Counted from the first letter of the stretch, positions 12,590 through 60,899 are shown. The stretch: DNA of 64,000 nt from Thermoplasmatota archaeon (GCA_965234725.1 CBDDUX010000029.1:1752-65751), one strand, 5' to 3'. The notes: a model not told the origin generated them from the sequence alone. A program made the numbers and translations.

Positions 12590-12641
12590 TGTAACACCCC
12601 CTTCCCGGACATATCCATTCCATCCCTATTTCCGATTATAA

Positions 12642-18166: not shown

Positions 18167-18180
18167 GGGGGAACCTCATT

Positions 18181-18213: not shown

Positions 18214-18225
18214 ACCGGAACCGGA

Positions 18226-19770: not shown

Positions 19771-19776
19771 TCTTTC

Positions 19777-20412: not shown

Positions 20413-20415
20413 AGA

Positions 20416-30770: not shown

Positions 30771-30771
30771 G

Positions 30772-32968: not shown

Positions 32969-32984
32969 TAGGGTAGAACAATGG

Positions 32985-33713: not shown

Positions 33714-33894
33714 CTTGTTTTCACCATAACCGAAGGACCAAATGATCCATACATATATACAGCACCGACTTAATATGAATTATCCGGATATTTAATACAA
33801 TAGAGATGGAATAATGAAAAAACAATAACTTGATGAATAACATTTGAAGAGTGAATAATTAAATAATTAAAAAACCACATTAGCAGGGGGTAAA

Positions 33895-36175: not shown

Positions 36176-36240
36176 AAAGATCCTCCTCGAAAGGTTTCCG
36201 GGCATGGAAAGGATACATCCCCCCTGCTATCATTTACATC

Positions 36241-42920: not shown

Positions 42921-43106
42921 TTCTAACGTTGAATCCCCCGGGGGCCGGGATCCAACACCAAACCCCACACTCTCTTTCCCCCAAACCCCGGCCCCCAATA
43001 TATTTATGTGAATTTTTAATCAAATCTTTTAATACAATAAAGGTAAAGGATATTATCCCCTCCACCGATATTGACATACCGCAAAGTAGCGGAACGGGGA
43101 AGAAGG

Positions 43107-44336
43107 ATGTTGAAGATCTTTGTGATCCAGCTGATCTCGGTTATGATCATGCTTTCATTCATCTTCGCCTCAGGAAAGGACCTTTCGGACCTTCCGGGCG
43201 ATGATGAGGACATTATCGGATACTGGATATTTGATGAAGGGACGGGGGAGAACACAACCGACCTGGCGAATGGAAAAACAATGGTCCTCGGGACCTCTTC
43301 ATCGAATGAGGATCAGGACCCGATATGGACGGAAGGTATTGAAGGGAAAGCCCTCCATTTCGATGGGGATGATGATGTGGCGATGGTAAGGAATTTCAAC
43401 CTTCCCTCCTCCGAGATGACCATGTCGTTCTGGATAAATACATCCTGGACAGTTGAAGGAAGGGTCCCTATTTCATATGCGAACATCTACGAGACCAACG
43501 AGTTCATGCTTGAAGATCCGGGGGACTTGAAGGTCCATATCAGAGGATTAACAAGGGATACCGATGTCTCCTTCAATGACGGGAAATGGCACAATATAGT
43601 ACTGACCTGGAGAGTGCTTGACGGGGACCTGAGAATTTACAAGGATACAAAGGAGGAATTCTCCGGGATTCTGGCAGTAGAGAATCCTATCAGGGGAGGT
43701 GGGACCCTTGTAATTGGTAATGATCAGGATGAGGTCGGAGGAGGCTTCGATGCTGACCAGGCCTTCAACGGGACCATTGATGAGCTTCTGATCATGGACA
43801 CCGTCTTGGAGGATGATGACATCTTGGATATTTTCGAGTGGGTATTACCACCTCCAGAGGTGATCGAGGCCACTCCTGAGGGGGGAAGACATCCCAATGC
43901 CACCATGATCAACATCACATTCAACGTTGACATGGACCGGTCCTCTGTCGAAGAAGCGTTCTCGATCCTGCCCGAGATCAACGGGACCTTCAGGTGGATG
44001 GAGAGGAGCTTCTCCTTCATTCCGGATGAGGACCTGGGATCCGATACGGAATACAAGGTAATGATCTCAAAAGAAGCAAAGGACATCTGGGGAAGGAAGA
44101 TAAAAGATGATATCCAGATCAAGTTCAAGACAGAGAAGATAGAGGAACCCGCACCGGTTGATGATGACGACACCACAACCGATGATGATACCACCGATGA
44201 TGAGGGAACTGACAAGGAGGATGAAAAGGACAATACGGCAACGGTCATGATGGTGCTAGCCCTCCTTGCAGCAGGTATGATCGCGATCATTTTGGCCCTT
44301 GCAGTGATTGCGAAATTGAATCACAGAGAGGACTAA
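43107..44336 (+). CDS. Membrane-anchored surface protein: signal peptide, LamG/concanavalin-A-like (Laminin_G_3) domain, Ig-like (SbsA-type) domain, Asp/Thr-rich stalk, C-terminal TM
   Basis: YWIFDEGTGENTTDLANG...WTEGIEGKALHFDGDDDVAMV...GKWHNIVLTW...GTIDELLIMD is the LamG_3 pattern. Stalk VDDDDTTTDDDTTDDEGTD. TM VMMVLALLAAGMIAIILALAVIA. The ATG at 43107 is preferred over the TTG at 43071. Confidence 0.8.
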   Translation: MLKIFVIQLISVMIMLSFIFASGKDLSDLPGDDEDIIGYWIFDEGTGENTTDLANGKTMVLGTSSSNEDQDPIWTEGIEGKALHFDGDDDVAMVRNFNLPSSEMTMSFWINTSWTVEGRVPISYANIYETNEFMLEDPGDLKVHIRGLTRDTDVSFNDGKWHNIVLTWRVLDGDLRIYKDTKEEFSGILAVENPIRGGGTLVIGNDQDEVGGGFDADQAFNGTIDELLIMDTVLEDDDILDIFEWVLPPPEVIEATPEGGRHPNATMINITFNVDMDRSSVEEAFSILPEINGTFRWMERSFSFIPDEDLGSDTEYKVMISKEAKDIWGRKIKDDIQIKFKTEKIEEPAPVDDDDTTTDDDTTDDEGTDKEDEKDNTATVMMVLALLAAGMIAIILALAVIAKLNHRED

Positions 44337-44379
44337 ACGATCAATGATCGCTCATTTCTCTGAATACCTGATCAAAGGA

Positions 44380-47300
44380 TCAGTCTTCGAAATGGTTCAG
44401 CATCCTGTCGTGGACCTCTCTCTTTTCCGGGTCCAGCAGGATTGTCTTTGCAGTATTGATCTCCCTTATCTTTTCATCGAAATCCGCTTCTGTATTTCGA
44501 TTGGTATTTCGATCCGGATGATAGATCCCCGCAAGGTTCCGATAAGCCTTCTTGATCTCCCAATCAGTGGCATTCCTTGAAACACCAAGGATCTGATAGC
44601 AGTTGATCTCCTTGGGGGACCTTCTGATACCAAATCCGGACATGATCTCTTTCATGGCGGACATATCACCGTATTCAAGCCCTCTTTTCTTCTTTCTCAG
44701 AACAAAGAATACTATGGAAGCTGAGATCGCTATCAATATAAGGATTGTCAAAAAGAAGATGAGGATCCCAGAGTAATTGTTCCCATCACTTTCTTTCTTT
44801 AAGAGTATCACATTTCCCAGATCGGCATTGTTTCCGGGAACAAGCGAAATCGTGGTATTGTAATCCAAAAATCCCTTTGCTTTGATCAGAATGGTCCAGT
44901 TCCCTTCAGGACCGCTGAAGGAGAACCTGCCATCCTCATCTGATAAGTATTCGGTTCCCTGGAAGGTTACCATTGCACCAGAAACAGTATTTCCTCCGGC
45001 ATCCATGATCCTTCCACTGGCAGTTCCAGGACCTACTGTTGTGAACTCATAGGATCCATTCTCCAGGGGATTCCCTGCGAGGTCCACTGCTGAAACATCG
45101 ATGGAATATATTTTCCCGATCTCCCAGACCGGAACCGGAGTGATGTATGCTTTGTTCCCGCTTACAACAGTCAGGAAGGAGATGCCGTCTATCATGACCG
45201 ATACATTGTAGACATTCTCAGAGAAAACGATCTCCAGGTCACTGTCAAGGGGAACCTTATCTCCGGAAGGGACCTTGTAATCGATCCTGGGCGAGACCGT
45301 GTCTGTCGTGAATGTGATATCCTTGGAAGCGGAGTTCCCCGCTTTATCCTCAAGGTAGAATGTGACCACATGGGATCCATCTTTAAGGTCCTTATACTCC
45401 ATAGGGCCTTCCAATTGAACTACAGACCTTCCCCGATCAATGGATATTTCTACTGTTCTGATCGGACTTCCAGTCCCATCCGAGACCCAATCCAGTAGAA
45501 TGCTGTCTTCCTTTAGGTAGGACCCCGATTCCGGAGTGATGGTTATCTCCGGTTGTGTCTGGTCCAGGATCAATGTCAATCTTGCAATTCCATTGTTTCC
45601 TGCCAGGTCCTTGAAGGAGATGAGAACCAGATATTCCCCTTCATCCAGAATGATCACCTCGTAGTCGCTCCTATCGGTTTGAATGGGATCCCTATCCTCC
45701 AAGAAAATGGTGAATCCATCATCAAGTCCCGATAGGTTATCGTAAGCATTCCATGAGATCGGAAAGGACCCGATGTTGGAATATAGGGGACCTGGGGCAT
45801 TAAAAACAAGGTAGGGAGAGGTCCGATCCACTGTGAAATTGACCGATACCTGAGATGATAATGAGATGGGGTTCTCTGACCTGATAGTCACGATGTGATC
45901 CCCCTCTGAAAGGTTCTCCAAATCATAGGAACCAAACTCCACTGGTACCACGAAGGGCTCCTCTTCATCCACCGATATCTCCACGAGAGATACTCCTGTT
46001 TCAACATCGATGCATGACCATTGTAGCTCGACCACCTCATCATTGAGGAAGGACCCTTCGATGGGGGTGTGAATGAAGATATCGGGTCCTGTCCCGTCCG
46101 GGATAGTCGATGCTGGAGCAGAGAGAAGGCCCTCTCCCATATCGTTGTAAGCAGATACCATGAAGGAGTGGATGATCCCATCCGAAAGGGAATGTATGGT
46201 CACCTTGTTCGTATCTGATACATCGAATTTCAGTTGGAAAGGACCTTTCCCCTCCTTCTGATATATCTTATATCCATCGAGGTCCCCTCCATACCTCTTT
46301 TCAGGTTCGGTCCATTCCAGAACAACCGAAGAGGACCCAGGAGTTATAGAAATTAGTTCAGGTGCATCAAAGGTTGGCATCGGGGTCCTGACTAGCGGAT
46401 AAGGATCCGATTCCCCTACTCCATGGAAGAGATATTCCTCATCCACGATTCCATCGAAATCCGTATCGGGAGATGTATGTTCGGAGTAGTGATTTCCCGA
46501 CCCTCCTGCGGAGTAGTAATTATTCTTGGAACCTTTCACCTGGGACGTTTCATAATCGTATTCATTTCCATTTGCGTTATTATTCCTCAGGAATGAATTT
46601 GAGATCACCATATTATCCTCTGCAGTACCGAAGAAATAAAGCCCATAGCCCTTGCTTTTCCAGATTATATTAAAGTTTATTGTCGACTCCCTTGTATCAT
46701 CCAGAGAAACACCAATATCGCAATCTGAAAAATTATTACTGGAAATGACTATGTCTTCCGAACCTCTATCGGTTACTCCTTCACCACAATCTAAAATCAA
46801 GCAGCCAACAATTGTAATATTGTTGGAAGACCTCGAATAAATTCCATAATCCATCCTCATTATTTCCTGATCTCTGATAAGGACATCTTCAGATGAATAT
46901 TGATAGATTCCATACTCAGATTTATTAACTGAATTATTTTCAATAATGCCTTTGTTAGAGTCAGAGAGATATATCCCTCTATTTATTGAATTCAAGGTAT
47001 TTCTTGTTAACAGAAAATCCGTTGAATAGGCCAATGTTACAGCCCTGCTTGAACTTTCAACAATGTTATCTATTATCTTCACATCATTGCAGTAATAACA
47101 CTTAATACAGTCTGTCTCAAAAGAACGGAAGATGTTACCTATGATGCGTAGTTTATTGATGGATCTCATTTGTCCAGGAAATGATATATTGCAATCTTCT
47201 ACCAATAAATTCCTGGAATCTTGAACTTCAAATCCAACCCCGTCATTTAGATCAAATTTACTTCCTATGATCGCAATATCTTCTGAGTTGAAGAGGGTAA

Positions 47301-49098
47301 GTCCTTCGCCATTGTTATTGGATACGTTTGAATTGATTATTGTAAGATTAGTGCAATCGAAAAAATGAAGCCCCTCACCTGAAGAAGAGTCTCTGACCTC
47401 CAATCCTTCAAGTAATACATTTTCACAATTCACAAAAGGGCTGTTGGTATTATTGTGAAATGACCATTCCTTCAGCGTAAGATTTGAACAATTGACGAAA
47501 AAATACTGGGATCCATCGGGAATTGGACCATGAGAGAGATCCATTCCTCCGAAATATCTGATGGGCTTCCCATTCAACGTATTATTAGGGGGAAGAACCT
47601 GTTCTGTTAAACCAGAATAATCAAAATGCATATCGACATCTAAGAGAATAGGAGGTCCCAAAATCTCATTTCCATAATAGGTATTTCCTGCAGATAGATC
47701 ATCAGATAAAATCGAATAGGAATTTGTATGGGATATTATTTGATTTTTATGGAAAATATTCCCATATGAATTTTCAATGTAGATTCCAAAGCTGTTCTCA
47801 CTTTCCAGAGTGCATTGATCAATCTTCACACCACTGGACAAGAATATCCTAAGTCCTTCTTTAAAAAATGAATAACAGGTAATGTTGGATAATAATGCAT
47901 TTTGTGTTCTTCTAACATGAATCCCCGGATCGTTGATCCTTGTATCCAATCTTCCATTTAAAATGTTTACATTTTCACAACTGTTTATACGGATACGGGA
48001 ATTTCTTCCTGAGATCTCGAATCCATCTATGTTACAATTATTAATCTCTTCAAGATTGAGACCACCATAACCATAATCCCTTCTTATACTAGTAATATTA
48101 ATAATCTTAATATCCGTCCCTGAATCCAGGTCTATTGAATCCCAATTAGTTCTTTCAAAATAACAACCGAAAATATTAATTTTTTCAAATGTGTATATTC
48201 CAATTGCATATTCATCATCATTTTTAAATTCTGATTCAATAATGGAAATATTTTCAACATGACTCATCTGAATAGAATTCCTGCACTTATTGAAAGTTGT
48301 ATTATCAATCATGATATCTTCACAATAAATGGATTCTAGTCCTTCGTCCATAATACTGAAATATGAATCAAAGATCTGAAAACCTGAACAATAATGAATA
48401 TTTATTCCATCCTTTACAGAATTGAAAAATGAACATCTTTTAATTATCATTTCATTAAGAATGGTGGAGGGTTCATTGGAGATTCCATAGCTCGTGTTAT
48501 AGAATGATGTGTTTTTAATCAATATATTCCATGCTTCATCGATATGAATGCACCTATAAGTTTCATGAAAACTGCAATTTGAAATAGTAATATTTCCGGA
48601 ATTCTTGAAATATACCAGCTCTTTATCATAGTAAATGTAATACTTTGAATTATTATAAAGATCACAATTTGAAATTAACAGATGGGATGAGATATTTCCA
48701 ATATAGATCGCATGGTCCTCACCATTGGCATCGATATCAAGGTCCTCGATTCTGTATGGATTCTCCTTCGTCCCGTTCCCGGTCCACCCCTCATCATCCA
48801 TCAGGTCCTCGAGATCGGTCTCATTGTTGATTATTATCGGGTCATGGTCGGTGAGGTTCCCTGAAACAGAGGACCTAATCATGGGAAGATCCTCTTCCAT
48901 GAAGATATCGAGGTCCTCATCTTCATCGAACTGATAAGGGATTCCCTCTCCTTGATCGAAAAGGATCCAAAAGGGACCTGCCAGAAGCAGGACCGTCAGT
49001 ATTAACGCATCGGTCCTCATCTTTCCCGACTGGATATCTGGTTCACCGTATTTGACCCTAACGTTCATAGAAGACACTGGAATAGAAGGAAACGGCAT
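44380..49098 (-). CDS. Giant (1572 aa) surface protein: N-terminal anchor/signal, PbH1 beta-helix, FN3, Ig-like modules, CarboxypepD_reg-like domain, TM, cytoplasmic J-domain
   Basis: ORF track, continuous frame. Beta-helix coils throughout residues ~110-860. FN3 (VVLEWTEP...YKIYQKEG...FMVSAYNDMGEG). GTASGRIMDAGGNTVSGAMVTF (CarboxypepD_reg-like). TM ILIFFLTILILIAISASIVFFVL + RKKKRG. J-domain with HPD. A start at an internal Met (MRTDALILTVLLLAG, ~49020) is possible. Confidence 0.85.
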   Translation of the reverse strand: MPFPSIPVSSMNVRVKYGEPDIQSGKMRTDALILTVLLLAGPFWILFDQGEGIPYQFDEDEDLDIFMEEDLPMIRSSVSGNLTDHDPIIINNETDLEDLMDDEGWTGNGTKENPYRIEDLDIDANGEDHAIYIGNISSHLLISNCDLYNNSKYYIYYDKELVYFKNSGNITISNCSFHETYRCIHIDEAWNILIKNTSFYNTSYGISNEPSTILNEMIIKRCSFFNSVKDGINIHYCSGFQIFDSYFSIMDEGLESIYCEDIMIDNTTFNKCRNSIQMSHVENISIIESEFKNDDEYAIGIYTFEKINIFGCYFERTNWDSIDLDSGTDIKIINITSIRRDYGYGGLNLEEINNCNIDGFEISGRNSRIRINSCENVNILNGRLDTRINDPGIHVRRTQNALLSNITCYSFFKEGLRIFLSSGVKIDQCTLESENSFGIYIENSYGNIFHKNQIISHTNSYSILSDDLSAGNTYYGNEILGPPILLDVDMHFDYSGLTEQVLPPNNTLNGKPIRYFGGMDLSHGPIPDGSQYFFVNCSNLTLKEWSFHNNTNSPFVNCENVLLEGLEVRDSSSGEGLHFFDCTNLTIINSNVSNNNGEGLTLFNSEDIAIIGSKFDLNDGVGFEVQDSRNLLVEDCNISFPGQMRSINKLRIIGNIFRSFETDCIKCYYCNDVKIIDNIVESSSRAVTLAYSTDFLLTRNTLNSINRGIYLSDSNKGIIENNSVNKSEYGIYQYSSEDVLIRDQEIMRMDYGIYSRSSNNITIVGCLILDCGEGVTDRGSEDIVISSNNFSDCDIGVSLDDTRESTINFNIIWKSKGYGLYFFGTAEDNMVISNSFLRNNNANGNEYDYETSQVKGSKNNYYSAGGSGNHYSEHTSPDTDFDGIVDEEYLFHGVGESDPYPLVRTPMPTFDAPELISITPGSSSVVLEWTEPEKRYGGDLDGYKIYQKEGKGPFQLKFDVSDTNKVTIHSLSDGIIHSFMVSAYNDMGEGLLSAPASTIPDGTGPDIFIHTPIEGSFLNDEVVELQWSCIDVETGVSLVEISVDEEEPFVVPVEFGSYDLENLSEGDHIVTIRSENPISLSSQVSVNFTVDRTSPYLVFNAPGPLYSNIGSFPISWNAYDNLSGLDDGFTIFLEDRDPIQTDRSDYEVIILDEGEYLVLISFKDLAGNNGIARLTLILDQTQPEITITPESGSYLKEDSILLDWVSDGTGSPIRTVEISIDRGRSVVQLEGPMEYKDLKDGSHVVTFYLEDKAGNSASKDITFTTDTVSPRIDYKVPSGDKVPLDSDLEIVFSENVYNVSVMIDGISFLTVVSGNKAYITPVPVWEIGKIYSIDVSAVDLAGNPLENGSYEFTTVGPGTASGRIMDAGGNTVSGAMVTFQGTEYLSDEDGRFSFSGPEGNWTILIKAKGFLDYNTTISLVPGNNADLGNVILLKKESDGNNYSGILIFFLTILILIAISASIVFFVLRKKKRGLEYGDMSAMKEIMSGFGIRRSPKEINCYQILGVSRNATDWEIKKAYRNLAGIYHPDRNTNRNTEADFDEKIREINTAKTILLDPEKREVHDRMLNHFED
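44407..44604 (-). other. J-domain (DnaJ N-terminal-type domain) forming the cytoplasmic tail of the 1572-aa protein
   Basis: NCYQILGVSRNATDWEIKKAYRNLAGIYHPDRNTNRNTEADFDEKIREINTAKTILLDPEKREVHD. HPD codons at 44512-44520 (minus strand). Confidence 0.9.
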
Positions 49099-49129
49099 GA
49101 AATTGAGATGTTATAGATTTGAAGAACAA

Positions 49130-49141
49130 CCTTTTAAAAGG
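49130..49141. promoter_or_regulatory. Perfect 12-nt palindrome CCTTTTAAAAGG in the 87-nt divergent intergenic region between two giant genes (candidate shared TATA element)
   Basis: Read directly. It lies 32 nt from the ATG at 49098 (minus gene) and 45 nt from the TTG at 49186 (plus gene). Confidence 0.35.
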
Positions 49142-49185
49142 CGAGGTGACTTGGATAAATAGGGTTCGATTCTGGGGGGTTATGT

Positions 49186-52100
49186 TTGTTCACTCGAAAT
49201 AAAGCTGCGACAGCCTGTTTATTAATGATTATTTTGACAATGGGTTCATTTCTTCCATTTTGCATTGATTCCGAAGCGGAACCCGTCATTGAAACCGAGG
49301 ATACCAATATCCCTGTTTTCAAAGTGATGGATCATCAAATCGGGTCCTATCCGGGAACCATCTATTACGTCGGAGGATCAGGACCTGGCAACTATACCAC
49401 CATACAACAGGGGGTTGATGCGGCATCGGACGGCGATATGGTCCTCCTGTCCCCCAAGACATATTATGAAACGATAATGATCACTTCTGAGATCTGGATA
49501 ATGGGAAACGGTTCGACCATTTCCCCCCCACTTGAAATAAACCCGGTTGCCTTCACTTTAAATGCGGACAATGTTACAATAACTGACCTAATGATCAGGG
49601 GTTATTACGTTGCTATCCAGTCCACATATTATGGGCACAATATCACTAACAATGTATTTTCCGACAACCAAAGGGATTTGATTATTGATGTCAATATAAA
49701 TGACATCCATACTTCCAGGTCATTCAGCGGTATCCGGATCCTGGATAACATCATAATGAGATCGTCACCATCATCCAGTATGGAAGTAACGGTGAGTCTG
49801 ATATCAGATAATGAGAACACCACCAATATCAAGACAGGAGATGTCATTCTATCGGGGAATGATTTCACTTCATCTTCATTATCTGGTGATCTCTTCTATT
49901 TCTCCATGAACGTGATGTCAATGGGGGGGGGATCTTTGGATATTGGAAATTTCAAGGCAACGGATAATGAGATGTCGGGAGCGGGGAGGGGTATTTACTT
50001 CTTTTCTGATATTGGGATGCTCACGGATGTAAAGGTCACGGTGGGTGACTTCATTATCTTGAACAACAATATCACCGATTTCGGAAATATAGGCCTGGCT
50101 TTGGATTATTACAATGTTAACACCGTATATGGATCAACGAACATAAGGATGGGTGAGGTCCGTATTTACAATAACCTTTTAAGGTCAGATAATCCAGCAT
50201 CCGGAATAACTATCCCTGCATATTCACTTTGGTCCAATTTTAATGATGACTCTTCAATGATCTGCGGAAATCTGACGATCAGCAATAATATCATCGATGT
50301 CCTGAACGAAGGTGTTGAAGTCTTTTTCATATTACCTGGCATCAATATATATGATAACGTCAGAGTGATCTCACAGAACACCTATATCAGCAACAACTGG
50401 ATAAAAAACTCCAGGAGCGGGATCTATGTTGAAATTGACCGGTTTGAAGCTCTTTATGAAAATGTCACTTGTTCCATTGGAGATATCACAATAATAAATA
50501 ATACGGTCAATAGTACTTCGATCCCCGTTACTGTGAACGGTTATGGCTTGGGCAACGATATGCACGGTAACTCAAGTTTCATGATGGGAGACATCACCAT
50601 TACTGAAAATGACCTCATGACCGATATGTACTCCACCTTGGCAAACGGTATATCCTTTAATATGAACAAAGTTGGACATCTCCTCTATGATAACTCAAGT
50701 GTGAGTATTGGAATTATGAAGATCAATAAGAACTCGATACATTCATACCAGGGTATCAGTTTCTCCCAGTTCCTGAAAATTGGAAGTGAACTATACGGAT
50801 GGTCTTCATTTTCTATGAAAGGGATCAATGTTTCTGAAAATAACATATGGTCAGAAAGTTATGGGATTACCATACACACTTTTTCAGAGTTCGGCAGCAA
50901 CCTCTACGGTTCGTCAACTGTTCAGATCAGAGAGATCGGGATCAAGAAAAATGCGATCTGGTCTCACGGAGATGGGATATTCATCAATCATCTGGAAGAA
51001 TTCGGTTACCGGATGTCCGACCTATCATCAATGACAATGATGGACATAGTCATTTCAGAAAACAATATTTGGTCCTCAAGTGGGGGGATCCACATCTACC
51101 AGATCAATACCTGGGGTGTATTGATGACGGGGGGATCATCCTTTACTTTTGGATCAATTTACATTCATGATAACTTCCTCTGGGCATTGGAACAAGGGAT
51201 CATGATCGAAAGCATCTCAAATTTAGGATTGGAACTTTGGGGAACAGCCACCTTCACAATGGAAGATATCGACATAAGTCACAACAAGATCAGATCCGAA
51301 TACAATGGCATCCATCTGGAAAGCCTGGATACATTTGGGACCCATATCTACGAAGAGGGCTCATTTGAAATGGGTTCTATCATGATCAGAGATAACGACG
51401 TCATATCCAATGAGACTGGTGTTTTTCTTTCTCAAGTATTTAATATCGGATGTTATCTGATGGATAATGCCAGCTTCTCCATGGAAGATATCAGTATCAT
51501 GGGTAATTCAATTAAATCATTGAGTTATGGCATCTATATTGGATATACCTACCTAGTTGGGTCATTCCTTGAAGATAACTCCTCATACCAGGGTGGTTCC
51601 GTATCACTGACAGAGAACTCTGTTGTATCTGGGGACCAGGGGATCCATATAGAATACATCAACAGCTTCGGATCCTTCCTCACGGGGGAGGCTACTTTCC
51701 AAATGCAAGACATCATGATCTGTGGAAATGGCATCATCTCGGAAAACGAAGGGGCCCTGATCCAGAACATCGGAACCATAGGGTACCAATTGTCCGGATA
51801 TTCATCTACCACAATGGGGGTAATATCTCTCAGTGAAAATATTGTCAGGACCAATTTAACTGGGATCATGCTTTCGGATATATCTCAGATAGGTATCTGG
51901 ATGGAAGATGCCACCGTTGTAAAATTCGGCGGTATCCACATGAATAACAACTCGGTGAATTCCAAAAATGATGGAGTGGTCCTGGGGCCCCTATCATATT
52001 TCGGGAATGAGAATTCGGGAAATTCAGTATCCGAATTTGGAAATATCACATTGGATGGCAATACCGTGGATTCCGGTAATCGGGGAGTTGGATTCGACAA

Positions 52101-54882: not shown

Positions 54883-54927
54883 TCACCGATCGCTTTGGAA
54901 GCCTGAAATTGGTAACAGGGACTCACT

Positions 54928-57900
54928 TCACTGAAGGTATTGACCTGACTGAGGTCCATCACCAGGAATGTTTGAGACCTGGGCCATTGGTTGCGGTAAT
55001 CCTTGTGGATATTGGCTTGGAGGTAATGGTTGTTGAACGTAACCACCCGTAATTCCCTGCCCTGTTTGCTGTCCCTGTCCCATTGGTGGATACCAATTCT
55101 GCTGCAAGGATTGAGGAGGCGTTTGCATTGTGGATGCCTCCTTCTTTTCTCTCCGTAATGTTAAAAGTACAACGACCATAAGGATCAACAGTAGGACAGC
55201 GATCCCGATCGTTATCGGAAGGAACAGGTCCATGCTGTTTTCTGCGGAAGACCCCGCCTTTATGGAGAGTACCTCGGAATCAGGGGCCTTTCCCACGGAT
55301 GTCACGCCAGCGATCCGATAATTATATCGGACCCCTTCTTTCACATTTTCGTCTATATATGAACCCTTGCCTGCCGGGACCGTGGCAATGATCTGGGGGT
55401 CCCTTCCCTCGATCCATCTGGAGATCTCTACTGCAATGAACGGACTTCCTCCATTGTCATCAGGAAGTGTCCAGCTGATGTTAATGAAACCTCTTCCCGA
55501 TGTAAGTACCAGTTCAAGCGGTGTACCGGGAGAAGACACCGGGATCACCCTTGCCGGATCCGACATTGGGCCCTCCCCCACTTTATTGGATGCGGTCACC
55601 GTTATTGTATATTCGACACCGTTCTCAAGTCCGTCGATCATATAACTGGTGGTAGATATGTTCGATTCCAGAAGTTCCAGAGAACTACCATCCGGAGCAA
55701 GATAAATATTGTAAGAAACAAACCCCACTCCTCCAAGTTCCATGGGAGGCTTCCAATCGACCTTTATCCCACCGTCATTCGGAGTTGTGAGGAGGATCTC
55801 AGGCATTCCCGGGATCGAGAGTGGTATGACTGTCCTGACCTCGCTGAAATCACTCATTGAATATGAATTAAAGGCTCTCACTGCCACGTAGTAGGTCCTT
55901 CCATTGGTGAGCCCGGCCTCATGATGGGTAAGTCCTGATGTCTCTCCCACATTCGATAGGTCCGCTGGTGAACTCCCAAGGTAGACCATATAAGATACCA
56001 AAGGATCGCCTCCATCATCGCTCGGTTGGGACCATGAAATGGTCACCTCTCCATTACCTCCTGAAATAACTATTTCCCTTGGAACGGATGGAGGACCAAG
56101 AGGAGTTGCAGTCACTATCTCCGAAATGGGGCCTTCCCTGAATTCGTTGGACGCCGTAACATAGAATGAATAGGTCTGGCCGTTCACCAACCCTGACATC
56201 TTAAAATCAGTATCATCGATCCCTGTTTCAAACAGAATACTTTCATCATCATCAGGACCACCAACATAGACATTGTAAGTGACAGAATCATCACCACCAA
56301 GGTCGGATGGTGCCCTCCATTTGAGATCTGCCTTCCCCTCTCCTGCCACGACCGATAGCTCTCTGGGTTCGGAGGGTATCCCAATGGGTCTTGAACCCAC
56401 CTTCAATGACTGAGGGCCTTCTCCCTTATCATTTACCGCAGAAACCATGAACAGGTAATGGACTCCATTGACGAGATCCGTCAGATTGAGGTTTGTCTGT
56501 TTGAGACCGACGGCTTTAGTGGAGAATGCGGACCCGCCGGCGCTGATGTAGATATTGTACTTCAGGTCCTCTTCTCCTCCGTTATCCATGGGGGTATCCC
56601 AGTATAAGTGAACATACCCCGGCCCTCTAATAGCTGTCAGATTTTCCGGGGCATCCGGTATTTTCAAAGGTCTCAAGGGAATTGGATTGGATAAAGGACC
56701 TTCTCCCATCCCATTGGTTGCCGACATTGCGTAATAATAGACCTGCCCGTTGACAAGGTCTTCATCCGTGAAGGAGAAATCCTCCAATCCGTCCATGATG
56801 GAAACGAGTCCATCTGGATTCGGCCCACGGTATATATTGAAGGTTATCTCGATATCACCACCAAGGTCTTCCGGGTCCTTCCAATTCAATGTGACAAAGC
56901 TATCACCTGTTGAATAACTGGTGAACTCCGGGGCGGAGGGGGGTCTTGCCGGAATACCCATCACGATCTTGGTCGGGGGTGATTCCCCCACCATGTTCTT
57001 CGCTGTCACATAGTAATAGTATCTCTCTCCGTTGTCAAGGTCCTGGTGAACGAATGAAGTGGTGGTAGCATTTACTTCACCCACCAATTCGAAGGTCCTG
57101 TTCAAGGGTGACATGTAGATATTGTAACCGGTGATCGATTCGTTTCCATCCCTCAGAGGAGTTGACCATGAAAGTGTTAATTCCTGATCCCCCTTTTCAG
57201 CTGAGGGTGAAAGTGGTTTGGAAGGGGGGAACGAATATATCTTGATCCGGCAGATGAAACAGTCTCCATTGCTGAATGTGTCATCATATGCCTCTTCATG
57301 GACTGGAAGATCAGATGAATAAGTAAACCCACTCAGATAAAGGCCATCATTATCATCGAATCCCATCCAGTTGGCGACATCATAATCATTACCACCGAAA
57401 TAGGATGAGAATTCGACATCATCCTTCTCATGATTGAAAATTACAAGGAAGGCATCTTGGTACCCATCCGCCGCTGTATCCAATGGATATTCCGAAAGTG
57501 GGAAATCGGTGGAAGTGGTAGTGCCGCACACCATGACCTTCCCCTCGGGATCAAGGTCAATATAACGCCCTTCCTCATAATCAGAACCTCCGAGGAAAGT
57601 ACCGTACTTAACTGACGAACCCTGCCTGTTGAATTCGATCACGAAGGCGTCCTGGTAACCGCTCATCATCGATTGATATGCGTCCTTTGTAACCGGAAAG
57701 TCGCTCATATATGTATTCCCGGTAAGTAAGATCGAATCACTAGTTATTCTTAGAGAATTGGGCTGAGTATCCTCGTGAATGAATGTCGAAAAATCAAGAC
57801 CTCCATCGCTATCAAATCCTGTTAGAGTTCCCGTCATCCATCTCGAATTCGTGGACTGCTTGAATGCTCCATTGGTGGTTGGAAAGTCCATGCTGGCAGA

Positions 57901-59340
57901 TATACCACAGACAACAATGTCATTCGATGGAGTAATGGCAATATCCGTCGGATTCTCATCGGACCACATATCATCATCTCCTCCAAGGAACGTGGCCCAC
58001 TCCAGGTCCGAAGCGTTCTGGTTCAACTTGATGATATAAAAATCATAATATCCAGTAAGGTTAGCATCGTATGCATTCTTTATCGGAAGGTCCCCTGATT
58101 TGACCCTTGATGTGACATAAGCATACCCATCCTTGTCAACAGCGATACTGCTTCCAAAATCAGTATTGTTACCGGCCAAAAAGGTAGAATAGATCAGGTT
58201 TGTTCCATCTCCTGATATCTTGGATACAAATACATCCGGTGCGAGGACCGGATTACCCCATTCATCTTCCACAATCTGTATCTTGGATGTCTCGTTGAAG
58301 ACACCGGGGGTAACCGGAAAATTAGCTGAAAAAGTGTAACCGGTAACATAGATGTTTCCATCAGGGTCCAGATCAATCCCTTCGGCGATATCATCCGAGT
58401 TCCCACCGAGAAATGTGGAAAAGACCAGAGAATCCAAGTTTCCGTTCATCTTGGTCACAAAGGCCTCGGTGGACCCCTGAAATGTCCTGTCAATTACTCC
58501 TGATGTCTTTGGAAAATCTGAGGAAGACGTATACCCAATAAGGATTACGTCCCCATTTACCATTGCTGAACTTTTACCCATTTCTTCGTACCTTGTACCA
58601 CCCAGGTAGGTACAATACTGAACATAGGGATCGATGATCAAAGGCATTGATACATCATATCGTCCAACATCGAATCTGACAACATCTCCTGTATGATCGA
58701 ATTTGGTTGGTATTATTTCGTTACCCTGCAGTGAGACCAGACCAGCATCTTCAACTATTCCAAAAGGTGTTTTAAGCAGTAGATCTCCATCCGAACTGAT
58801 GTCAATATCCTCAAGTCCAATGAACTGCAATTTTATAAGATCGGGATCCGCCCCGGGTTCAATGATAATATCATATTTCAACATCCCATCATTGATGGAA
58901 AAGATGATATCGATACCATCCCAGAGGTCCTCGTAAACGATCCTTTTGTAACAGTGGACCCCGCTTACCCATCTCTCTTTCTCTCCGATCATATAATTGT
59001 AATAAGTTGACTCTGGATCCTCTGCCGAAGGATCCACTCTTCTGGCTCCAACGAATTCCATTTCATAAGAGAACACACCTTCATCAGGATCGAGAAGGGC
59101 GAAGACAACTGATGAATCAGTGAATCCTGCCCTGAAAGGTCCTATCGTATAGAATCTGATATCATCCCTGGAAAGCTGACCTTCATTTGTCACAAAATGG
59201 TCTCTCTCCATGGATGTATTCTCAGGTGACAATTCCATTTCACTTTCGATATTAACAGCGTCTTCCGGGCTGGAGATCACAGATAATGGAAGGGCTGTGA
59301 TCAACATTATCATCATAACCGCGAGGGGGATGCTTTTCAT
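54928..59340 (-). CDS. Surface protein (1470 aa): signal peptide, SBBP-type beta-propeller repeats, seven FN3 domains, TM, Q/P/G-rich cytoplasmic tail; paralogue of 8795..12589
   Basis: Signal MKSIPLAVMMIMLITALPLSVISS. N-terminal region colinear with the 1264-aa protein (..FVTNEGQ.. / ..FTENRGQ.., ..WDGIDIIFS..LKYDIIIEPGADP..). SBBP motifs (SSDFPKT, SANFPVT, SMDFPTT, MSDFPVT, STDFPLS). Seven FN3. TM ITIGIAVLLLILMVVVLLTL. Confidence 0.85.
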   Translation of the reverse strand: MKSIPLAVMMIMLITALPLSVISSPEDAVNIESEMELSPENTSMERDHFVTNEGQLSRDDIRFYTIGPFRAGFTDSSVVFALLDPDEGVFSYEMEFVGARRVDPSAEDPESTYYNYMIGEKERWVSGVHCYKRIVYEDLWDGIDIIFSINDGMLKYDIIIEPGADPDLIKLQFIGLEDIDISSDGDLLLKTPFGIVEDAGLVSLQGNEIIPTKFDHTGDVVRFDVGRYDVSMPLIIDPYVQYCTYLGGTRYEEMGKSSAMVNGDVILIGYTSSSDFPKTSGVIDRTFQGSTEAFVTKMNGNLDSLVFSTFLGGNSDDIAEGIDLDPDGNIYVTGYTFSANFPVTPGVFNETSKIQIVEDEWGNPVLAPDVFVSKISGDGTNLIYSTFLAGNNTDFGSSIAVDKDGYAYVTSRVKSGDLPIKNAYDANLTGYYDFYIIKLNQNASDLEWATFLGGDDDMWSDENPTDIAITPSNDIVVCGISASMDFPTTNGAFKQSTNSRWMTGTLTGFDSDGGLDFSTFIHEDTQPNSLRITSDSILLTGNTYMSDFPVTKDAYQSMMSGYQDAFVIEFNRQGSSVKYGTFLGGSDYEEGRYIDLDPEGKVMVCGTTTSTDFPLSEYPLDTAADGYQDAFLVIFNHEKDDVEFSSYFGGNDYDVANWMGFDDNDGLYLSGFTYSSDLPVHEEAYDDTFSNGDCFICRIKIYSFPPSKPLSPSAEKGDQELTLSWSTPLRDGNESITGYNIYMSPLNRTFELVGEVNATTTSFVHQDLDNGERYYYYVTAKNMVGESPPTKIVMGIPARPPSAPEFTSYSTGDSFVTLNWKDPEDLGGDIEITFNIYRGPNPDGLVSIMDGLEDFSFTDEDLVNGQVYYYAMSATNGMGEGPLSNPIPLRPLKIPDAPENLTAIRGPGYVHLYWDTPMDNGGEEDLKYNIYISAGGSAFSTKAVGLKQTNLNLTDLVNGVHYLFMVSAVNDKGEGPQSLKVGSRPIGIPSEPRELSVVAGEGKADLKWRAPSDLGGDDSVTYNVYVGGPDDDESILFETGIDDTDFKMSGLVNGQTYSFYVTASNEFREGPISEIVTATPLGPPSVPREIVISGGNGEVTISWSQPSDDGGDPLVSYMVYLGSSPADLSNVGETSGLTHHEAGLTNGRTYYVAVRAFNSYSMSDFSEVRTVIPLSIPGMPEILLTTPNDGGIKVDWKPPMELGGVGFVSYNIYLAPDGSSLELLESNISTTSYMIDGLENGVEYTITVTASNKVGEGPMSDPARVIPVSSPGTPLELVLTSGRGFINISWTLPDDNGGSPFIAVEISRWIEGRDPQIIATVPAGKGSYIDENVKEGVRYNYRIAGVTSVGKAPDSEVLSIKAGSSAENSMDLFLPITIGIAVLLLILMVVVLLTLRREKKEASTMQTPPQSLQQNWYPPMGQGQQTGQGITGGYVQQPLPPSQYPQGLPQPMAQVSNIPGDGPQSGQYLQ
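55252..57228 (-). repeat. Seven tandem FN3 domains (protein-level repeat)
   Basis: Seven ~94-aa units with ..L.W..P.D.GG.....YN(I/V)Y.......L.......T.....L.NG..Y.(F/Y).V.A.N..GEGP.S. Confidence 0.8.
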
Positions 59341-59466
59341 CCTATCACTCTCCCAAGTATGGGATGATACTAACCCTGTCGGATTAAAACTTTGTTGTAC
59401 AACAGTGTAACATCATATAAATGAATAATACATTATAAATCAACTATTTTAATTTAAATATCTATT

Positions 59467-59506
59467 AAAAAAAGGATGACAAACCCCCTTAAGAATCAAA
59501 GGGGGT
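59467..59506 (-). terminator. Hairpin + T7 run downstream of the 458-aa gene (terminator-like)
   Basis: Stem accccctt (59483-59490) / aagggggt (59499-59506) with an 8-nt loop. On the minus strand it is followed by a T7 run (plus-strand A7 at 59467-59473). Begins 17 nt after the stop at 59523. Confidence 0.5.
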
Positions 59507-59522
59507 CGTACTAAAATTCTTC

Positions 59523-60899
59523 CTAACTGCGATAGGATCTCTTTCTGACCAGTATTATCCCGGCAATCAACACAGATGACAGAAGAAGGAATAGTTCAAA
59601 ACCAGGGGTTGGCTCATCATCTATCACATCATCGACATTCGCAGGGACCTCTCCGAAATAGGCAGTGTAGACCGGATCGTGAACGATCCTGTATCCGTCC
59701 CAGTTGGGGAAGAATACTCCATACCAGAATGCCTGTGATCCGAATCCCTTCGGACCAATGGCTTTTGTGCTATCCTTAATGAGCAGTCCCGGTGTGGCCC
59801 AGTTCGATCTGATCTGAGCGGATAGGCCATATGCCATTGATGAAAAGACCTTTGCAGAGAATCCCAATTGCCACGCAACAAGGATCAGATCGTTCAATTT
59901 GGCCTTCATTATCATGTTCTTGGCCTGTAGGTCCTGGGATATGGTGGTATCTTCCACCTCATCAATAAGATCGTAATCACCTCTCAATCCAAGGGAGAAG
60001 GCCCTAGTATCATCGGCAGTGAGATTGATCTCACCATCAATGACCTGATCTCGGTTGGTATTAAGTTCGGAACCATTCCCATCAAGGACCTTGTAATGGG
60101 AAGTGAACACATTGGTAAAATGGACCGCTCCAAAACCGAAATTATCCGGTATTGTCCCCTGAATGTCATTTGCAGGGATGGGGATCCCGAGGATTACAGC
60201 AAAGAGAGTGGTTATCTGTCCAACGGTATAGTAGGTCTCGGATGTGAGTTCACCAGTATCCCTATCGATATTGATATCATAAGTAATGGTAAGTTCAGTG
60301 AACTGAAGGACCCATCCGGTTGCCAGATAGGCTGTTGCAAGGGGGTTCTCTGTCGCTATCGCATACATATTGCGGTAGGTGATCCCGAATTTGAAATGAT
60401 CATCTGATATCTTCTCCACCTGGTGGTTCGTCACGGTTGGAGGATAAGTTCCGTTGATAACATTTCCTGCTCCGAAGGGTATCACATAGAAGAACTTCTC
60501 ACCCGTGCTTGGAACGGTATTGTTATCTGTATCCTCCCAGACACACAGGAATGCCAGTAAAGCTCCTATGAATACTTCCTTTCCAGCGGTTGTATAATAG
60601 TGCATACCGAACATCTGGTAAGGAAGAACACCTCTGTTGCCTTCTTCATCTTCCACCTGGTTCATGGTTATAAGGAACGCTTCGATATCTCCCATGTTCA
60701 AGAATGACACACCGAACTCAGCCGTTTTGTTGTCAGCGGTCCTATTCTCAATGGTGGTATACCATGATTCTTCTTCGAATGTATGACCGAATACCTCTTC
60801 CTCATCTCCCGCTTCCCAACCCTCAACATTGGAAAATTGCACTGATACCAATAGGACCCCCACAAGAAACGATGTCAATACTCCAGCTGTAATTTTCAA
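59523..60899 (-). CDS. Secreted protein of unknown family (458 aa) with signal peptide and PGF-CTERM-like C-terminal sorting signal
   Basis: Signal MKITAGVLTSFLVGVLLVSVQFSNVEG. C-terminus ..DDEPTPGFELFLLLSSVLIAGIILVRKRSYRS = PGF + hydrophobic span + basic tail. Confidence 0.7.
   Translation of the reverse strand: MKITAGVLTSFLVGVLLVSVQFSNVEGWEAGDEEEVFGHTFEEESWYTTIENRTADNKTAEFGVSFLNMGDIEAFLITMNQVEDEEGNRGVLPYQMFGMHYYTTAGKEVFIGALLAFLCVWEDTDNNTVPSTGEKFFYVIPFGAGNVINGTYPPTVTNHQVEKISDDHFKFGITYRNMYAIATENPLATAYLATGWVLQFTELTITYDINIDRDTGELTSETYYTVGQITTLFAVILGIPIPANDIQGTIPDNFGFGAVHFTNVFTSHYKVLDGNGSELNTNRDQVIDGEINLTADDTRAFSLGLRGDYDLIDEVEDTTISQDLQAKNMIMKAKLNDLILVAWQLGFSAKVFSSMAYGLSAQIRSNWATPGLLIKDSTKAIGPKGFGSQAFWYGVFFPNWDGYRIVHDPVYTAYFGEVPANVDDVIDDEPTPGFELFLLLSSVLIAGIILVRKRSYRS

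What the first reader, a model, noticed from the sequence alone, without database searches (positions are those of the whole stretch)
43071..60899. 17.8-kb surface-protein island whose giants carry three different cytoplasmic tails
Seen: five consecutive genes have no housekeeping gene between them. They are a LamG/Ig anchor protein, a 1572-aa PbH1 giant, a 1898-aa 37-aa-repeat giant, a 1470-aa SBBP/FN3 giant, and a 458-aa PGF-CTERM-like protein. All have signal peptides and a single C-terminal anchor.
The three giants end in unrelated cytoplasmic tails behind the TM: a J-domain, an acidic-aromatic tail (EEEEFEDDEWENEDFDDEGWDDDEF) and a 75-aa Q/P/G-rich tail. The two giants outside the island (662..6598 and 8795..12589) have only short tails.
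The three beta-helix giants share the same membrane-proximal module order (Ig-like, CarboxypepD_reg-like, acidic linker, TM) under different N-terminal binders.
Inference: this is a modular surface apparatus in which exchangeable ectodomains are wired to different intracellular partners. If so, it is an uncharacterised outside-in or assembly system rather than a set of passive adhesins.
Basis: partly seen in the sequence, partly recalled or inferred. Interest (0 to 1): 0.7.

Follow-up and report, generated by a model that had tools for sequence, protein, structure and literature searches.

The report
Archaeal surface giants with cytoplasmic tails
An uncultured Thermoplasmatota archaeon has a conserved cluster of huge membrane-anchored surface proteins, one of which ends inside the cell in a chaperone-recruiting J-domain, a combination I found described in no paper and which suggests that the cell coat is physically linked to the Hsp70 machinery.

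Summary
Five consecutive genes encode proteins with an N-terminal signal sequence and one C-terminal membrane helix. The three giants end in unrelated cytoplasmic tails: a J-domain, a [D/E]4-aromatic pentapeptide repeat, and a Q/P/G/Y-rich disordered tail.

All three tails recur in the orthologues in five related Thermoplasmatota genomes. They are under purifying selection against the closest relative (dN/dS 0.14, 0.02 and 0.26). The J tail is the best-conserved part of its protein, at 66-78% identity. Its beta-helix head is hypervariable: 34% identity between two genomes whose stalk and tail are 83% and 99% identical.

The TM + juxtamembrane helix + J-domain module sits on at least three ectodomain subfamilies. 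Every hit that carries a source name comes from a Thermoplasmatota MAG, and one genome has three copies.

The "apparatus" reading is only partly supported:
- The genes alternate strands, apart from one conserved divergent promoter between two of them.
- The cluster has no mobile-element marks.
- The fifth gene belongs to an independent, widespread family.
- No partner protein or signalling role was shown.

Most likely reading: these are cell-coat or adhesin-like giants whose tails dock cytoplasmic partners, with the J tail recruiting Hsp70 to the membrane. That makes it a new variant of membrane-anchored class C J-proteins.

The parts
43071..44336 (+). P1: 421-aa LamG/pentraxin + Big_5 surface protein with an acidic D/T-rich linker, a C-terminal TM and a 5-aa tail. 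The likely true start is Met13 at 43107. It lies beside the J giant, on the opposite strand, in all six genomes. A GIDE gene lies between them in two.
44380..49098 (-). P2: beta-helix (NosD/CASH-like) giant of 1572 aa. The likely start is Met27 at 49020. Order: head, fn3/Ig stalk, CarboxypepD_reg, TM, J tail.
46459..48801 (-). P2 hypervariable beta-helix head (aa ~100-880). It is 26-52% identical among the genomes. It is 34% identical between L002 and L003, whose P2 stalk and tail are 83% and 99% identical.
44701..44778 (-). P2 transmembrane helix (aa 1441-1466), followed by RKKKRG.
44383..44700 (-). P2 cytoplasmic tail (aa 1467-1572). It holds a conserved juxtamembrane helix (aa ~1476-1488, nt 44635-44673) and a J-domain with HPD (aa 1499-1564, nt 44407-44604). 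There is no G/F region or client-binding domain, which makes it a class C J-protein.
49112..49140 (.). Conserved block TATAGATTtgAAGAACAACCTTTTAAAAG in the divergent P2/P3 intergenic region. It contains the palindrome CCTTTTAAAAGG (49129-49140), a TATA-like element about 45 nt upstream of the P3 start. It is near-invariant in six genomes and unique in the window. Inferred to be a promoter, possibly bidirectional.
49186..54882 (+). P3: 1898-aa giant. It has about 14 copies of a 37-aa solenoid-type repeat (aa 471-1010, nt 50596-52215) and a NosD-like segment. The stalk (nt 52984-54711) is homologous to the P2 stalk. The start is TTG, preceded by GGGGGG at 49174-49179.
54790..54879 (+). P3 cytoplasmic tail, KGKETEEEEFEDDEWENEDFDDEGWDDDEF: five [D/E]4-aromatic pentapeptides after a basic juxtamembrane KGK. 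Four orthologues keep the pattern, with about 8 units in L002/L003. L007 keeps it less regularly. The motif is found only in P3 orthologues.
54928..59340 (-). P4: 1470-aa DUF7948 + SBBP beta-propeller + 7x fn3 giant. It is a paralogue of the 8795-12589 giant (32% over 1200 aa).
54931..55152 (-). P4 cytoplasmic tail (aa 1397-1470). It is 58% Q/P/G/Y with scattered Tyr/Trp and is inferred from composition to be disordered. Its sequence drifts (28-30% identity to the more distant orthologues), but length and composition are kept. dN/dS is 0.26 against the closest relative.
59523..60899 (-). P5: 458-aa beta-rich surface protein with a Loki-CTERM/PGF-like C-terminal sorting signal. It belongs to an independent, widely conserved family and is adjacent here by lineage synteny only.
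662..6598 (-). Paralogous beta-helix giant (1978 aa) that shares the stalk with P2 and P3 but has only a ~20-aa tail. It serves as a comparison.
8795..12589 (-). Paralogous DUF7948/SBBP/fn3 giant (1264 aa) with a 22-aa tail. It serves as a comparison for P4.

Best explanation
What it is. This is a lineage-conserved chromosomal cluster of type-I-anchored surface giants in an uncultured Thermoplasmatota archaeon. The giants carry many N-glycosylation sequons and look like cell-coat, adhesin or carbohydrate-binding (CASH) proteins. The variable outer heads face the environment. The constant stalk-TM-tail part anchors them.

How the tails work. The cytoplasmic tails are selected docking modules.
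- Shown: they exist, they lie on the cytoplasmic side by sequence rules, and they are conserved under purifying selection. The P2 tail is a bona fide J-domain preceded by a conserved juxtamembrane helix.
- Inferred: the P2 tail recruits cytoplasmic Hsp70 (DnaK) and triggers its ATPase at the inner face of the membrane beneath the giant. It would act as a membrane-tethered class C co-chaperone.
- Its most likely job is biogenesis, quality control or remodelling of the surface coat and its sub-membrane attachments, not ligand-triggered signalling. In principle this resembles DjlA in E. coli or TopJ at the mycoplasma attachment organelle.
- Inferred, weaker: the P3 [D/E]4-aromatic repeat and the P4 Q/P/Y-rich tail are multivalent short-motif or disordered binding sites for other cytoplasmic partners that remain unidentified.

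Regulation. P2 and P3 are probably co-regulated from a conserved, palindromic TATA-containing divergent promoter.
For: Domain architecture and topology.

J-domain.
- Pfam E 4e-19 with HPD.
- AF2 model pLDDT 79, with a TM helix, a juxtamembrane helix (pLDDT ~90) and four J helices.
- Foldseek top hits are J-domains, e.g. T. thermophilus DnaJ at rmsd 1.6 A and 50% identity.

Conservation.
- P2 orthologues at 45-56% overall identity keep the J tail.
- The tail is 66-78% identical, against 30-52% for the head.
- dN/dS of the tails: 0.137 (P2), 0.018 (P3), 0.262 (P4), against 0.16-0.23 for the ectodomains.

Recurrence.
- Exhaustive HMMER finds about 16 cluster representatives with the same TM/juxtamembrane/J ending. 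Several are full-length giants of 1064-1547 aa and the rest are short or fragmentary. They fall into three ectodomain subfamilies.
- Every one that carries a source name is a Thermoplasmatota MAG.
- One genome has three of them.
- A distant copy is colinear with P2 end to end (E 4e-106). P0032 shares only the TM-J module.

Other tails. The acidic/aromatic repeat is found only in P3 orthologues in all fetched DNA.

Promoter. The block is near-invariant in six genomes and unique per locus.

Head replacement.
Against: - Hsp70/GrpE was not checked in these genomes. No chaperone other than a flanking hsp20 is encoded nearby.
- No partner for any tail was identified.
- The J-domain is C-terminal, so it emerges only after the ectodomain has probably been translocated co-translationally. 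A role in its own export is therefore not obvious.
- Close paralogues lack the tails: the 662-6598 giant, and L008 13435-16488, which is colinear with the J-tailed P0042. The tails are therefore not needed for anchoring or export as such.
- The P4 tail is only 28-30% identical at larger distances.
- The P3 dN/dS rests on 30 codons with saturated dS.
- The cluster-as-unit idea is weak. Strands alternate, the flanks are equally syntenic, and P5 is independent.
Confidence: 0.5

Rival explanations
1. Outside-in signalling or mechanotransduction. Ligand binding or force on the ectodomains changes the clustering or exposure of the tails. This switches on different intracellular partners: Hsp70 through the J tail and unknown partners through the other two tails.
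For: - Conserved cytoplasmic tails sit on environment-facing, variable ectodomains.
- A conserved juxtamembrane helix between the TM and the J-domain could transmit or gate.
- Three different tails in one cluster suggest three outputs.
Against: - No kinase, phosphatase, transcription factor or second-messenger enzyme lies in or next to the cluster.
- A single TM helix and a J-domain alone have no known ligand-gated behaviour.
- The heads are hypervariable, which does not fit a dedicated receptor.
- Nothing tested here separates this from constitutive docking.
Confidence: 0.15
2. Sub-membrane scaffold. The acidic/aromatic repeats and the Q/P/Y-rich disordered tail make multivalent contacts that cluster the giants into patches or a lattice under the membrane. 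The J tail brings Hsp70 to remodel or disassemble that layer, as auxilin does for clathrin coats.
For: - The tails are repetitive, multivalent and compositionally conserved.
- Long disordered tails of 58-230 aa are common on other Thermoplasmatota giants.
- The J-domain has no client-binding domain, so its clients must be defined by location.
- A flotillin gene and a TPR-protein gene lie in the same window.
Against: - The idea is purely inferential. No interaction, condensate or lattice evidence exists.
- The flotillin and TPR genes are about 25 kb away and were not shown to co-occur with the cluster.
- The acidic tail is short, at 30 aa.
Confidence: 0.15
3. Passive surface proteins. The giants are simply adhesins, coat proteins or enzymes. 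Their tails only stabilise membrane anchoring and topology, for example as charged stop-transfer or retention segments. The J-domain is a lineage-specific fusion of little consequence.
For: - Paralogues with 7-22 aa tails coexist and presumably work.
- The P4 tail sequence drifts quickly.
- Low-complexity tails can be kept by composition alone.
Against: - The J tail is the most conserved segment of P2.
- HPD is kept in all 19 aligned tails and helix II stays K/R-rich.
- The module recurs on three ectodomain subfamilies and in up to three copies per genome.
- All tails have dN/dS of 0.26 or less.
- The pentapeptide periodicity of the P3 tail is kept in four of the five orthologues.
Confidence: 0.15

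Closest known systems
Membrane-anchored class C J-domain proteins (E. coli DjlA; also Sec63 and Pam18/Tim14)
   Same: A J-domain with no G/F region or client-binding domain is held at a membrane by a TM helix. Hsp70 is therefore activated at a defined place. In DjlA, too, the J-domain is C-terminal and cytoplasmic (own knowledge; reviewed in PMC8215388).
   Different: - DjlA has an N-terminal TM and essentially no ectodomain. Here a signal peptide and about 1400 extracellular residues precede the TM.
- The NCBIfam DjlA model scores 23 bits against a cutoff of 162.
- Sec63 and Pam18 place the J-domain on the trans side of a translocon. Here it is on the cis (cytoplasmic) side.
- The juxtamembrane helix motif is specific to this family.
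- A large survey of J-protein architectures contains none of the words 'transmembrane', 'extracellular' or 'NosD' (PMC10410713).
TopJ (MPN119) and the attachment organelle of Mycoplasma pneumoniae
   Same: In a wall-less cell, a J-domain protein localises to the internal structure behind the adhesins and is required for terminal-organelle function. Its partner proteins carry acidic/proline-rich and aromatic/glycine-rich low-complexity regions (PMC4923136). NCBIfam TopJ models hit the P2 J-domain.
   Different: - TopJ is a soluble or cytoskeleton-associated protein with an N-terminal J-domain, not a fusion to the adhesin.
- The hit covers the J-domain only (62.6 bits against a cutoff of 300).
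- It is bacterial, not archaeal.
- Whether this archaeon is wall-less is unknown.
Hypervariable cell-surface gene clusters ('metagenomic islands'), e.g. the cell-wall-associated island of Haloquadratum walsbyi
   Same: The cluster holds giant secreted or anchored glycoprotein-type genes. The exposed parts differ sharply between closely related genomes while the flanks stay syntenic (PMC4535781, listed; here).
   Different: - Here the variation is a head cassette on a constant stalk-TM-tail part, not whole-gene replacement.
- Conserved functional cytoplasmic tails are not, to my knowledge, a described feature of those islands.
Eukaryotic W-acidic / Y-acidic short linear motifs bound by TPR domains (kinesin light chain cargo motifs)
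   Same: Aromatic residues embedded in runs of D/E on cargo adaptor proteins serve as docking motifs for a TPR domain (PMC5450233, PMC6214655). The P3 tail is a repeat of exactly such units.
   Different: The resemblance is by analogy of sequence pattern only. No kinesin exists in archaea, no TPR partner was shown, and the strict 5-residue periodicity is not a feature of the eukaryotic motifs.

Membership tests
J-domain (DnaJ, PF00226) proteins | Sequence match to the J-domain profile above the curated threshold | tested here: met
   PF00226 scores 68.9 bits (cutoff 27.8), E 4e-19, at aa 1499-1564. TIGR02349 matches over the J region only.
J-domain (DnaJ, PF00226) proteins | HPD tripeptide between helices II and III, and a basic helix II | tested here: met
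   The window has ...KKAYRNLAGIYHPDRN.... HPD is kept in all 19 aligned tails, and helix II is K/R-rich throughout.
J-domain (DnaJ, PF00226) proteins | Four-helix J fold | tested here: met
   The AF2 model has helices I-IV. Foldseek top hits are J-domains at rmsd 1.1-1.7 A and probability 1.00. This is a prediction, not a solved structure.
J-domain (DnaJ, PF00226) proteins | An Hsp70 partner in the same genome, and stimulation of its ATPase | not tested
   No Hsp70 gene lies in the window or the fetched loci. 
DjlA co-chaperone family | Full-length match to the DjlA equivalog model (N-terminal TM, TerB-like middle domain, C-terminal J) | tested here: not met
   NF006948 scores 23.4 bits against a cutoff of 162, over the J-domain start only. 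The architecture also differs.
TopJ terminal-organelle J-protein | Full-length match to the TopJ equivalog models | tested here: not met
   NF037946 scores 62.6 bits (cutoff 300) and TIGR03835 scores 49.3 bits (cutoff 512). Both cover the J-domain only.
Right-handed parallel beta-helix (NosD/CASH) surface proteins | Beta_helix/NosD repeats above threshold | tested here: met
   - P2: PF13229 165 bits and PF05048 132 bits.
- P3: only a NosD_copper_fam segment at 58.5 bits, below its full-length cutoff of 300, plus 37-aa solenoid-type repeats with no Pfam match. Membership of the P3 head is therefore inferred, not shown.
Archaeosortase-type C-terminal sorting signals (PGF-CTERM / Loki-CTERM), for P5 | Tripartite signal at the extreme C-terminus that matches a curated model | tested here: met
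   NF033507 Loki-CTERM scores 20.9 bits (cutoff 19.9). Heimdall-CTERM scores 20.3 bits (cutoff 24). No PGF-CTERM model was listed. The sequence is TPGFELFLLLSSVLIAGIILVRKRSYRS.
Archaeosortase-type C-terminal sorting signals (PGF-CTERM / Loki-CTERM), for P5 | A cognate archaeosortase in the genome | not tested
   No exosortase or archaeosortase domain was found among the window proteins scanned. The rest of the genome was not available.
Mobile genomic island | Integrase or transposase, tRNA or direct-repeat boundaries, absence from relatives | tested here: not met
   - No tRNA.
- Only short chance-level repeats.
- No integrase domain in the flanks.
- The cluster and its flanks are syntenic in five other genomes.
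- The GC dips (0.39) coincide with the N/I/S-rich beta-helix heads.
Operon / single transcription unit | Same strand with short gaps | tested here: not met
   The strands run + - + - -. Only P4 and P5 are co-directional, with a 182-bp gap. P2 and P3 are divergent from a conserved promoter block.

The most novel reading that the evidence does not exclude
Thermoplasmatota have evolved a prokaryotic counterpart of eukaryote-style type I surface receptors and adhesins. Their short cytoplasmic tails carry modular docking elements: a J-domain for Hsp70, W/F/Y-acidic repeats, and a Q/P/Y-rich disordered segment. Together the tails couple a variable extracellular coat to an organised sub-membrane layer that Hsp70 remodels. 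That would be a previously unknown transmembrane link between cell surface and cytoplasm in archaea, with possible roles in surface dynamics, motility, vesiculation or responses to attachment and viruses.
Probability: 0.15. Interest if true: 0.85.

Novelty: new variant of a known kind. Interest (0 to 1): 0.62.

Why it matters
J-domain proteins decide where Hsp70 works. A J-domain fused behind the membrane anchor of a giant extracellular beta-helix protein appears in none of the papers I could search. Here it recurs, is the most conserved part of the protein, and among hits with a named source occurs only in Thermoplasmatota.

If Hsp70 is recruited to these sites, archaea would have a direct physical link between the cell coat and cytoplasmic proteostasis. 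It would also give a handle on how organisms with unusual or absent cell walls build and maintain very large surface proteins.

Two further points add value:
- The constant stalk-TM-J part with a replaceable head is a clean natural example of cassette exchange on a surface protein.
- The acidic/aromatic pentapeptide tail is a simple, testable candidate docking motif in a prokaryote.

If the tails prove inert, the locus is just another cluster of variable archaeal surface proteins.

Tried and rejected
1. A word-indexed protein search with the 128-aa TM+J tail scored only 27 candidates. It returned two fragments plus generic bacterial J-proteins. The exhaustive HMMER search was needed.
2. The genome-contig scan used two narrow peptide patterns and found only two species. 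That is why Hsp70 could not be looked for.
3. PDB sequence searches for P3 and P5 gave nothing. Foldseek of the P5 model gave no match at E<=1e-3, with a best TM of about 0.25.
4. Tandem Repeats Finder found no DNA-level repeats in the region. The 37-aa repeats show only at protein level.
5. The mobile-island idea was rejected: no tRNA, boundary repeats or integrase.
6. 'P5 is part of the apparatus' was rejected. Its family is widespread and sits in unrelated contexts.
7. 'hsp20 is functionally linked to the J giant' was considered. hsp20 is adjacent in five of six genomes but missing in L006, and it travels with other housekeeping flanks. I treat it as lineage synteny.
8. Literature searches found no description of J-tailed archaeal surface proteins. 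The absence applies only to the held library.
9. PPxY/WW-type motifs in the P4 tail were inspected by eye and are not conserved. I dropped the idea.


Full report
**1. What is there**

The region holds five long ORFs at exactly the stated coordinates, on alternating strands (+ - + - -). Pfam assigns these domains:
- P1 (43071-44336): Laminin_G_3/Pentaxin + Big_5.
- P2 (44380-49098): Beta_helix/NosD + fn3 + Big_13 + CarboxypepD_reg + DnaJ (aa 1499-1564, E 4e-19).
- P3 (49186-54882): Big_13/Big_7 + CarboxypepD_reg.
- P4 (54928-59340): DUF7948 + SBBP + seven fn3.
- P5 (59523-60899): nothing.

P3 aa 471-1010 consists of about 14 copies of an exact 37-residue repeat, visible only at protein level.

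A hydropathy scan shows one N-terminal signal-like segment and one C-terminal TM helix followed by K/R in each protein. N-glycosylation sequons are frequent in the ectodomains (6-35) and nearly absent from the tails.

The tails are:
- 106 aa with a J-domain (P2).
- 30 aa of KGKET + EEEEF EDDEW ENEDF DDEGW DDDEF (P3).
- 74 aa with 58% Q/P/G/Y (P4).

The two giants elsewhere in the window have tails of about 20 and 22 aa. The flanks are housekeeping genes:
- hsp20.
- A metallo-beta-lactamase-fold gene.
- Endonuclease III.
- CoA-disulfide reductase.
- DUF4870.
- An ABC-2 transporter.

Surface-protein genes occupy about 27 kb of the 64-kb window.

**2. Organism and relatives**

Record titles of related contigs name uncultured Thermoplasmatales/Thermoplasmatota MAGs. 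P2 has full-length orthologues at 56% and 45% identity, and both keep PF00226.

Five related genomes (loci L002 [= L005], L003, L004, L006, L007) show the order P4-like, P3-like, J giant, LamG protein. hsp20 follows in four of them. The exceptions are:
- L006 has the P3-like, J-giant and LamG core but no hsp20 beside it. Its SBBP giant lies elsewhere in the locus.
- Small insertions occur: a GIDE-domain gene in L003 and L006, and a 4HBT gene in L007.

The housekeeping flanks are equally syntenic. Synteny therefore does not by itself argue for a functional unit.

**3. Are the tails real and selected?**

All three tail types recur in the orthologues.

P2 tail:
- It is 66-78% identical to the window, while the head is 30-52% and the stalk 39-62%.

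P3 tail:
- It keeps the identical juxtamembrane ISKGKETEEEE and the 4-acidic-plus-1-aromatic periodicity in four orthologues, extended to about eight units in L002/L003.
- The most distant orthologue (L007) keeps an acidic/aromatic tail that is less regular.
- A six-frame regex scan of all fetched DNA finds this motif only in P3 orthologues.

P4 tail:
- It keeps its length and Q/P/Y-rich composition but only 28-30% identity at larger distance.

Against the closest relative (L004), Nei-Gojobori dN/dS values are as follows:

| Segment | dN/dS |
|---|---|
| P2 tail | 0.137 |
| P2 stalk | 0.167 |
| P3 tail (30 codons, dS saturated) | 0.018 |
| P4 tail | 0.262 |
| Adjacent P4 fn3 | 0.222 |

**4. 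The J tail is a recurrent module**

An exhaustive HMMER search with the 106-aa post-TM tail found 7 representatives below 1e-30. About 16 cluster representatives match from the juxtamembrane region to the C-terminus. Several are full-length proteins of 1064-1547 aa, and the rest are short or fragmentary.

They fall into three ectodomain subfamilies. All that carry a source name are Thermoplasmatota MAGs.

An alignment of 19 tails shows this module: TM, basic stretch, a conserved helix ([ML][KL]E[IV]hxxFxh), about 8 residues, CYxxLGV..., HPD..., AKxILxDxxKRxxxDRxL. There is no G/F region or client-binding domain. That defines a class C J-protein.

The structure prediction agrees:
- AF2 (pLDDT 79) predicts the TM helix, a confident juxtamembrane helix and four J helices.
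- The Foldseek top hits are solved J-domains at rmsd 1.1-1.7 A.

One genome (GCA_048569615.1) has three J-tailed giants, two of them in tandem. BLASTP comparisons show three relationships:
- One of them is colinear with P2 end to end (E 4e-106).
- P0032 shares only the TM-J module with P2 (40% over 130 aa).
- A neighbour colinear with the J-tailed P0042 lacks the J tail.

The module is therefore old, has moved between ectodomains, and has been gained or lost among paralogues.

**5. Modularity of the ectodomains**

P2 868-1471 aligns with P3 1267-1871 (E 1e-38). Both align with the stalk of the 662-6598 giant. P4 is a paralogue of the 8795-12589 giant (E 3e-162).

L002 and L003 are very similar in P3 (mostly 80-98% per 100-aa window) and P4 (mostly 90-99%). 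In P2 they are also alike in the signal peptide (76%), the stalk (83%) and the tail (99%). Yet the P2 beta-helix head (aa ~100-880) is only about 20-36% identical per 100-aa window (34% overall).

In the closest relative, L004, the P2 head is also far more divergent than P3. Its gene is split across frames, which could be pseudogenisation or long-read errors.

So a variable or replaceable head sits on a constant stalk-TM-J part. It is typical of surface proteins under diversifying pressure.

**6. Regulation**

The divergent P2/P3 intergenic region contains a block TATAGATTnnAAGAACAACCTTTTAAAAG (window 49112-49140). It includes the palindrome CCTTTTAAAAGG.
- It is near-invariant in all six genomes, although the coding sequences are only 30-60% identical.
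- It is unique in the window, with 0 matches expected by chance.
- It occurs once per related locus.

It lies about 45 nt upstream of the P3 TTG start, which is preceded by GGGGGG. I infer an archaeal BRE/TATA promoter for P3, possibly bidirectional. This is the only evidence here for any co-regulation within the cluster.

**7. What does not fit the 'apparatus' idea**

- P5 belongs to a family of about 460-aa proteins with 119 listed homologues, in Thermoplasmata, Methanomassiliicoccales and Asgard archaea.
  - Identity is 35-45% across phyla.
  - In a Methanomassiliicoccales genome and a Thorarchaeota genome it sits in unrelated contexts.
- The cluster has no mobile-element marks.
- No signalling enzyme is present.
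- Other Thermoplasmatota giants carry tails ranging from 7 to 230 aa of quite different kinds. Long tails are thus a general habit of these proteins, not a special trio.
- Hsp70 could not be looked for in these genomes.

**8. Interpretation**

Shown:
- The architecture, and a topology consistent with sequence rules.
- The conservation and selection of the tails.
- The recurrence of the J module, the head variability and the conserved promoter.

Inferred:
- The J tail recruits and activates Hsp70 at the membrane beneath the giant.
- Because the J-domain has no client-binding part, its clients are set by location.
- I consider a role in building, maintaining or remodelling the surface coat and its inner attachments the most likely one. 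The nearest working analogies are DjlA and TopJ at the attachment organelle of wall-less Mycoplasma (PMC4923136). Neither family's membership test is met.
- The P3 repeat resembles W-/Y-acidic docking motifs recognised by TPR domains in eukaryotes (PMC5450233, PMC6214655). This is an analogy only.

Ligand-triggered signalling, a sub-membrane scaffold remodelled by Hsp70, and inert tails remain rivals.

**9. Novelty**

No paper in the searchable library describes J-domain tails on archaeal surface giants. Database names for the relatives are generic: 'right-handed parallel beta-helix repeat-containing protein', 'NosD domain-containing protein' and 'DnaJ domain-containing protein'.

I rate this a new variant of a known kind, namely membrane-anchored class C J-proteins on variable archaeal surface proteins. 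It is of moderately high interest, and the functional claim is still untested.

Noticed in passing
window 59523-60899 (-); loci L010 7001-8386, L011 7001-8356: P5 is a strongly conserved surface-protein family of about 460 aa with no Pfam match. It has 119 listed homologues and is 35-45% identical between Thermoplasmatota and Asgard archaea. It carries a Loki-CTERM-type sorting signal. The AF2 model is confident (pLDDT 80, pTM 0.78), mostly beta plus a long helix, and has no PDB fold match (best TM ~0.25). Function unknown.
   Followed up: yes
window 49112-49140: A near-invariant promoter-like block holding the 12-bp palindrome CCTTTTAAAAGG lies between the divergent P2 and P3 genes. It is conserved across six genomes whose proteins are only 30-60% identical. 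A second conserved element, ATATTTGA-like, lies at about 49048-49056.
   Followed up: partly
window 17543-21327 (-): A flotillin gene (SPFH + Flot, 18226-19770) sits in a same-strand run with three ORFs that have no Pfam match and a TPR-repeat protein (20416-21327). This may be relevant as membrane-microdomain or acidic-tail-binding candidates, but no link was shown.
   Followed up: no
window 29424-36840: A photolyase gene lies next to a carotenoid biosynthesis cluster: lycopene cyclase, two phytoene-desaturase-type oxidases, phytoene synthase, a Caroten_synth protein and a desaturase-like gene on the opposite strand. This suggests a light-exposed lifestyle.
   Followed up: no
L004 6326-11011: The P2 orthologue in the closest relative (MFD03804.bin.2.29) is broken across three reading frames. 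Its head is 50% identical over aa 4-279 and has no match for aa 280-492. This is either pseudogenisation of the J giant or long-read frameshift errors.
   Followed up: partly
L003 14590-15354; L006 6624-7382: A GIDE-domain (PF12483) membrane protein of about 250 aa is inserted between the J giant and the LamG protein in two of the six genomes. It is absent from the window.
   Followed up: no
L008 16558-17703; L009 19932-21083: In GCA_048569615.1, Fic-domain proteins lie just downstream of both clusters that contain J-tailed giants. L008 holds two J-tailed giants in tandem (5262-9950 and 10001-13210).
   Followed up: no
L006 12167-16621; L009 14354-19114; L010 2-2509: Other Thermoplasmatota surface giants carry long cytoplasmic tails of 230, 90 and 58 aa. 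By composition these look mostly disordered. Their types differ: K/E-rich and coiled-coil-like, or E/P-rich repeats. Long tails seem to be a general trait of these proteins.
   Followed up: partly
window 14454-15944 (-), 36911-38086 (+), 38092-38838 (-): Sizeable ORFs of 496, 391 and 248 aa have no Pfam match at E<=1e-4.
   Followed up: no
window 22509-23702 (+): An SRP54 gene lies in the same window as seven large secreted or anchored proteins. The ORF as listed starts at a GTG and looks N-terminally short for SRP54 (397 aa). The start was not checked.
   Followed up: no
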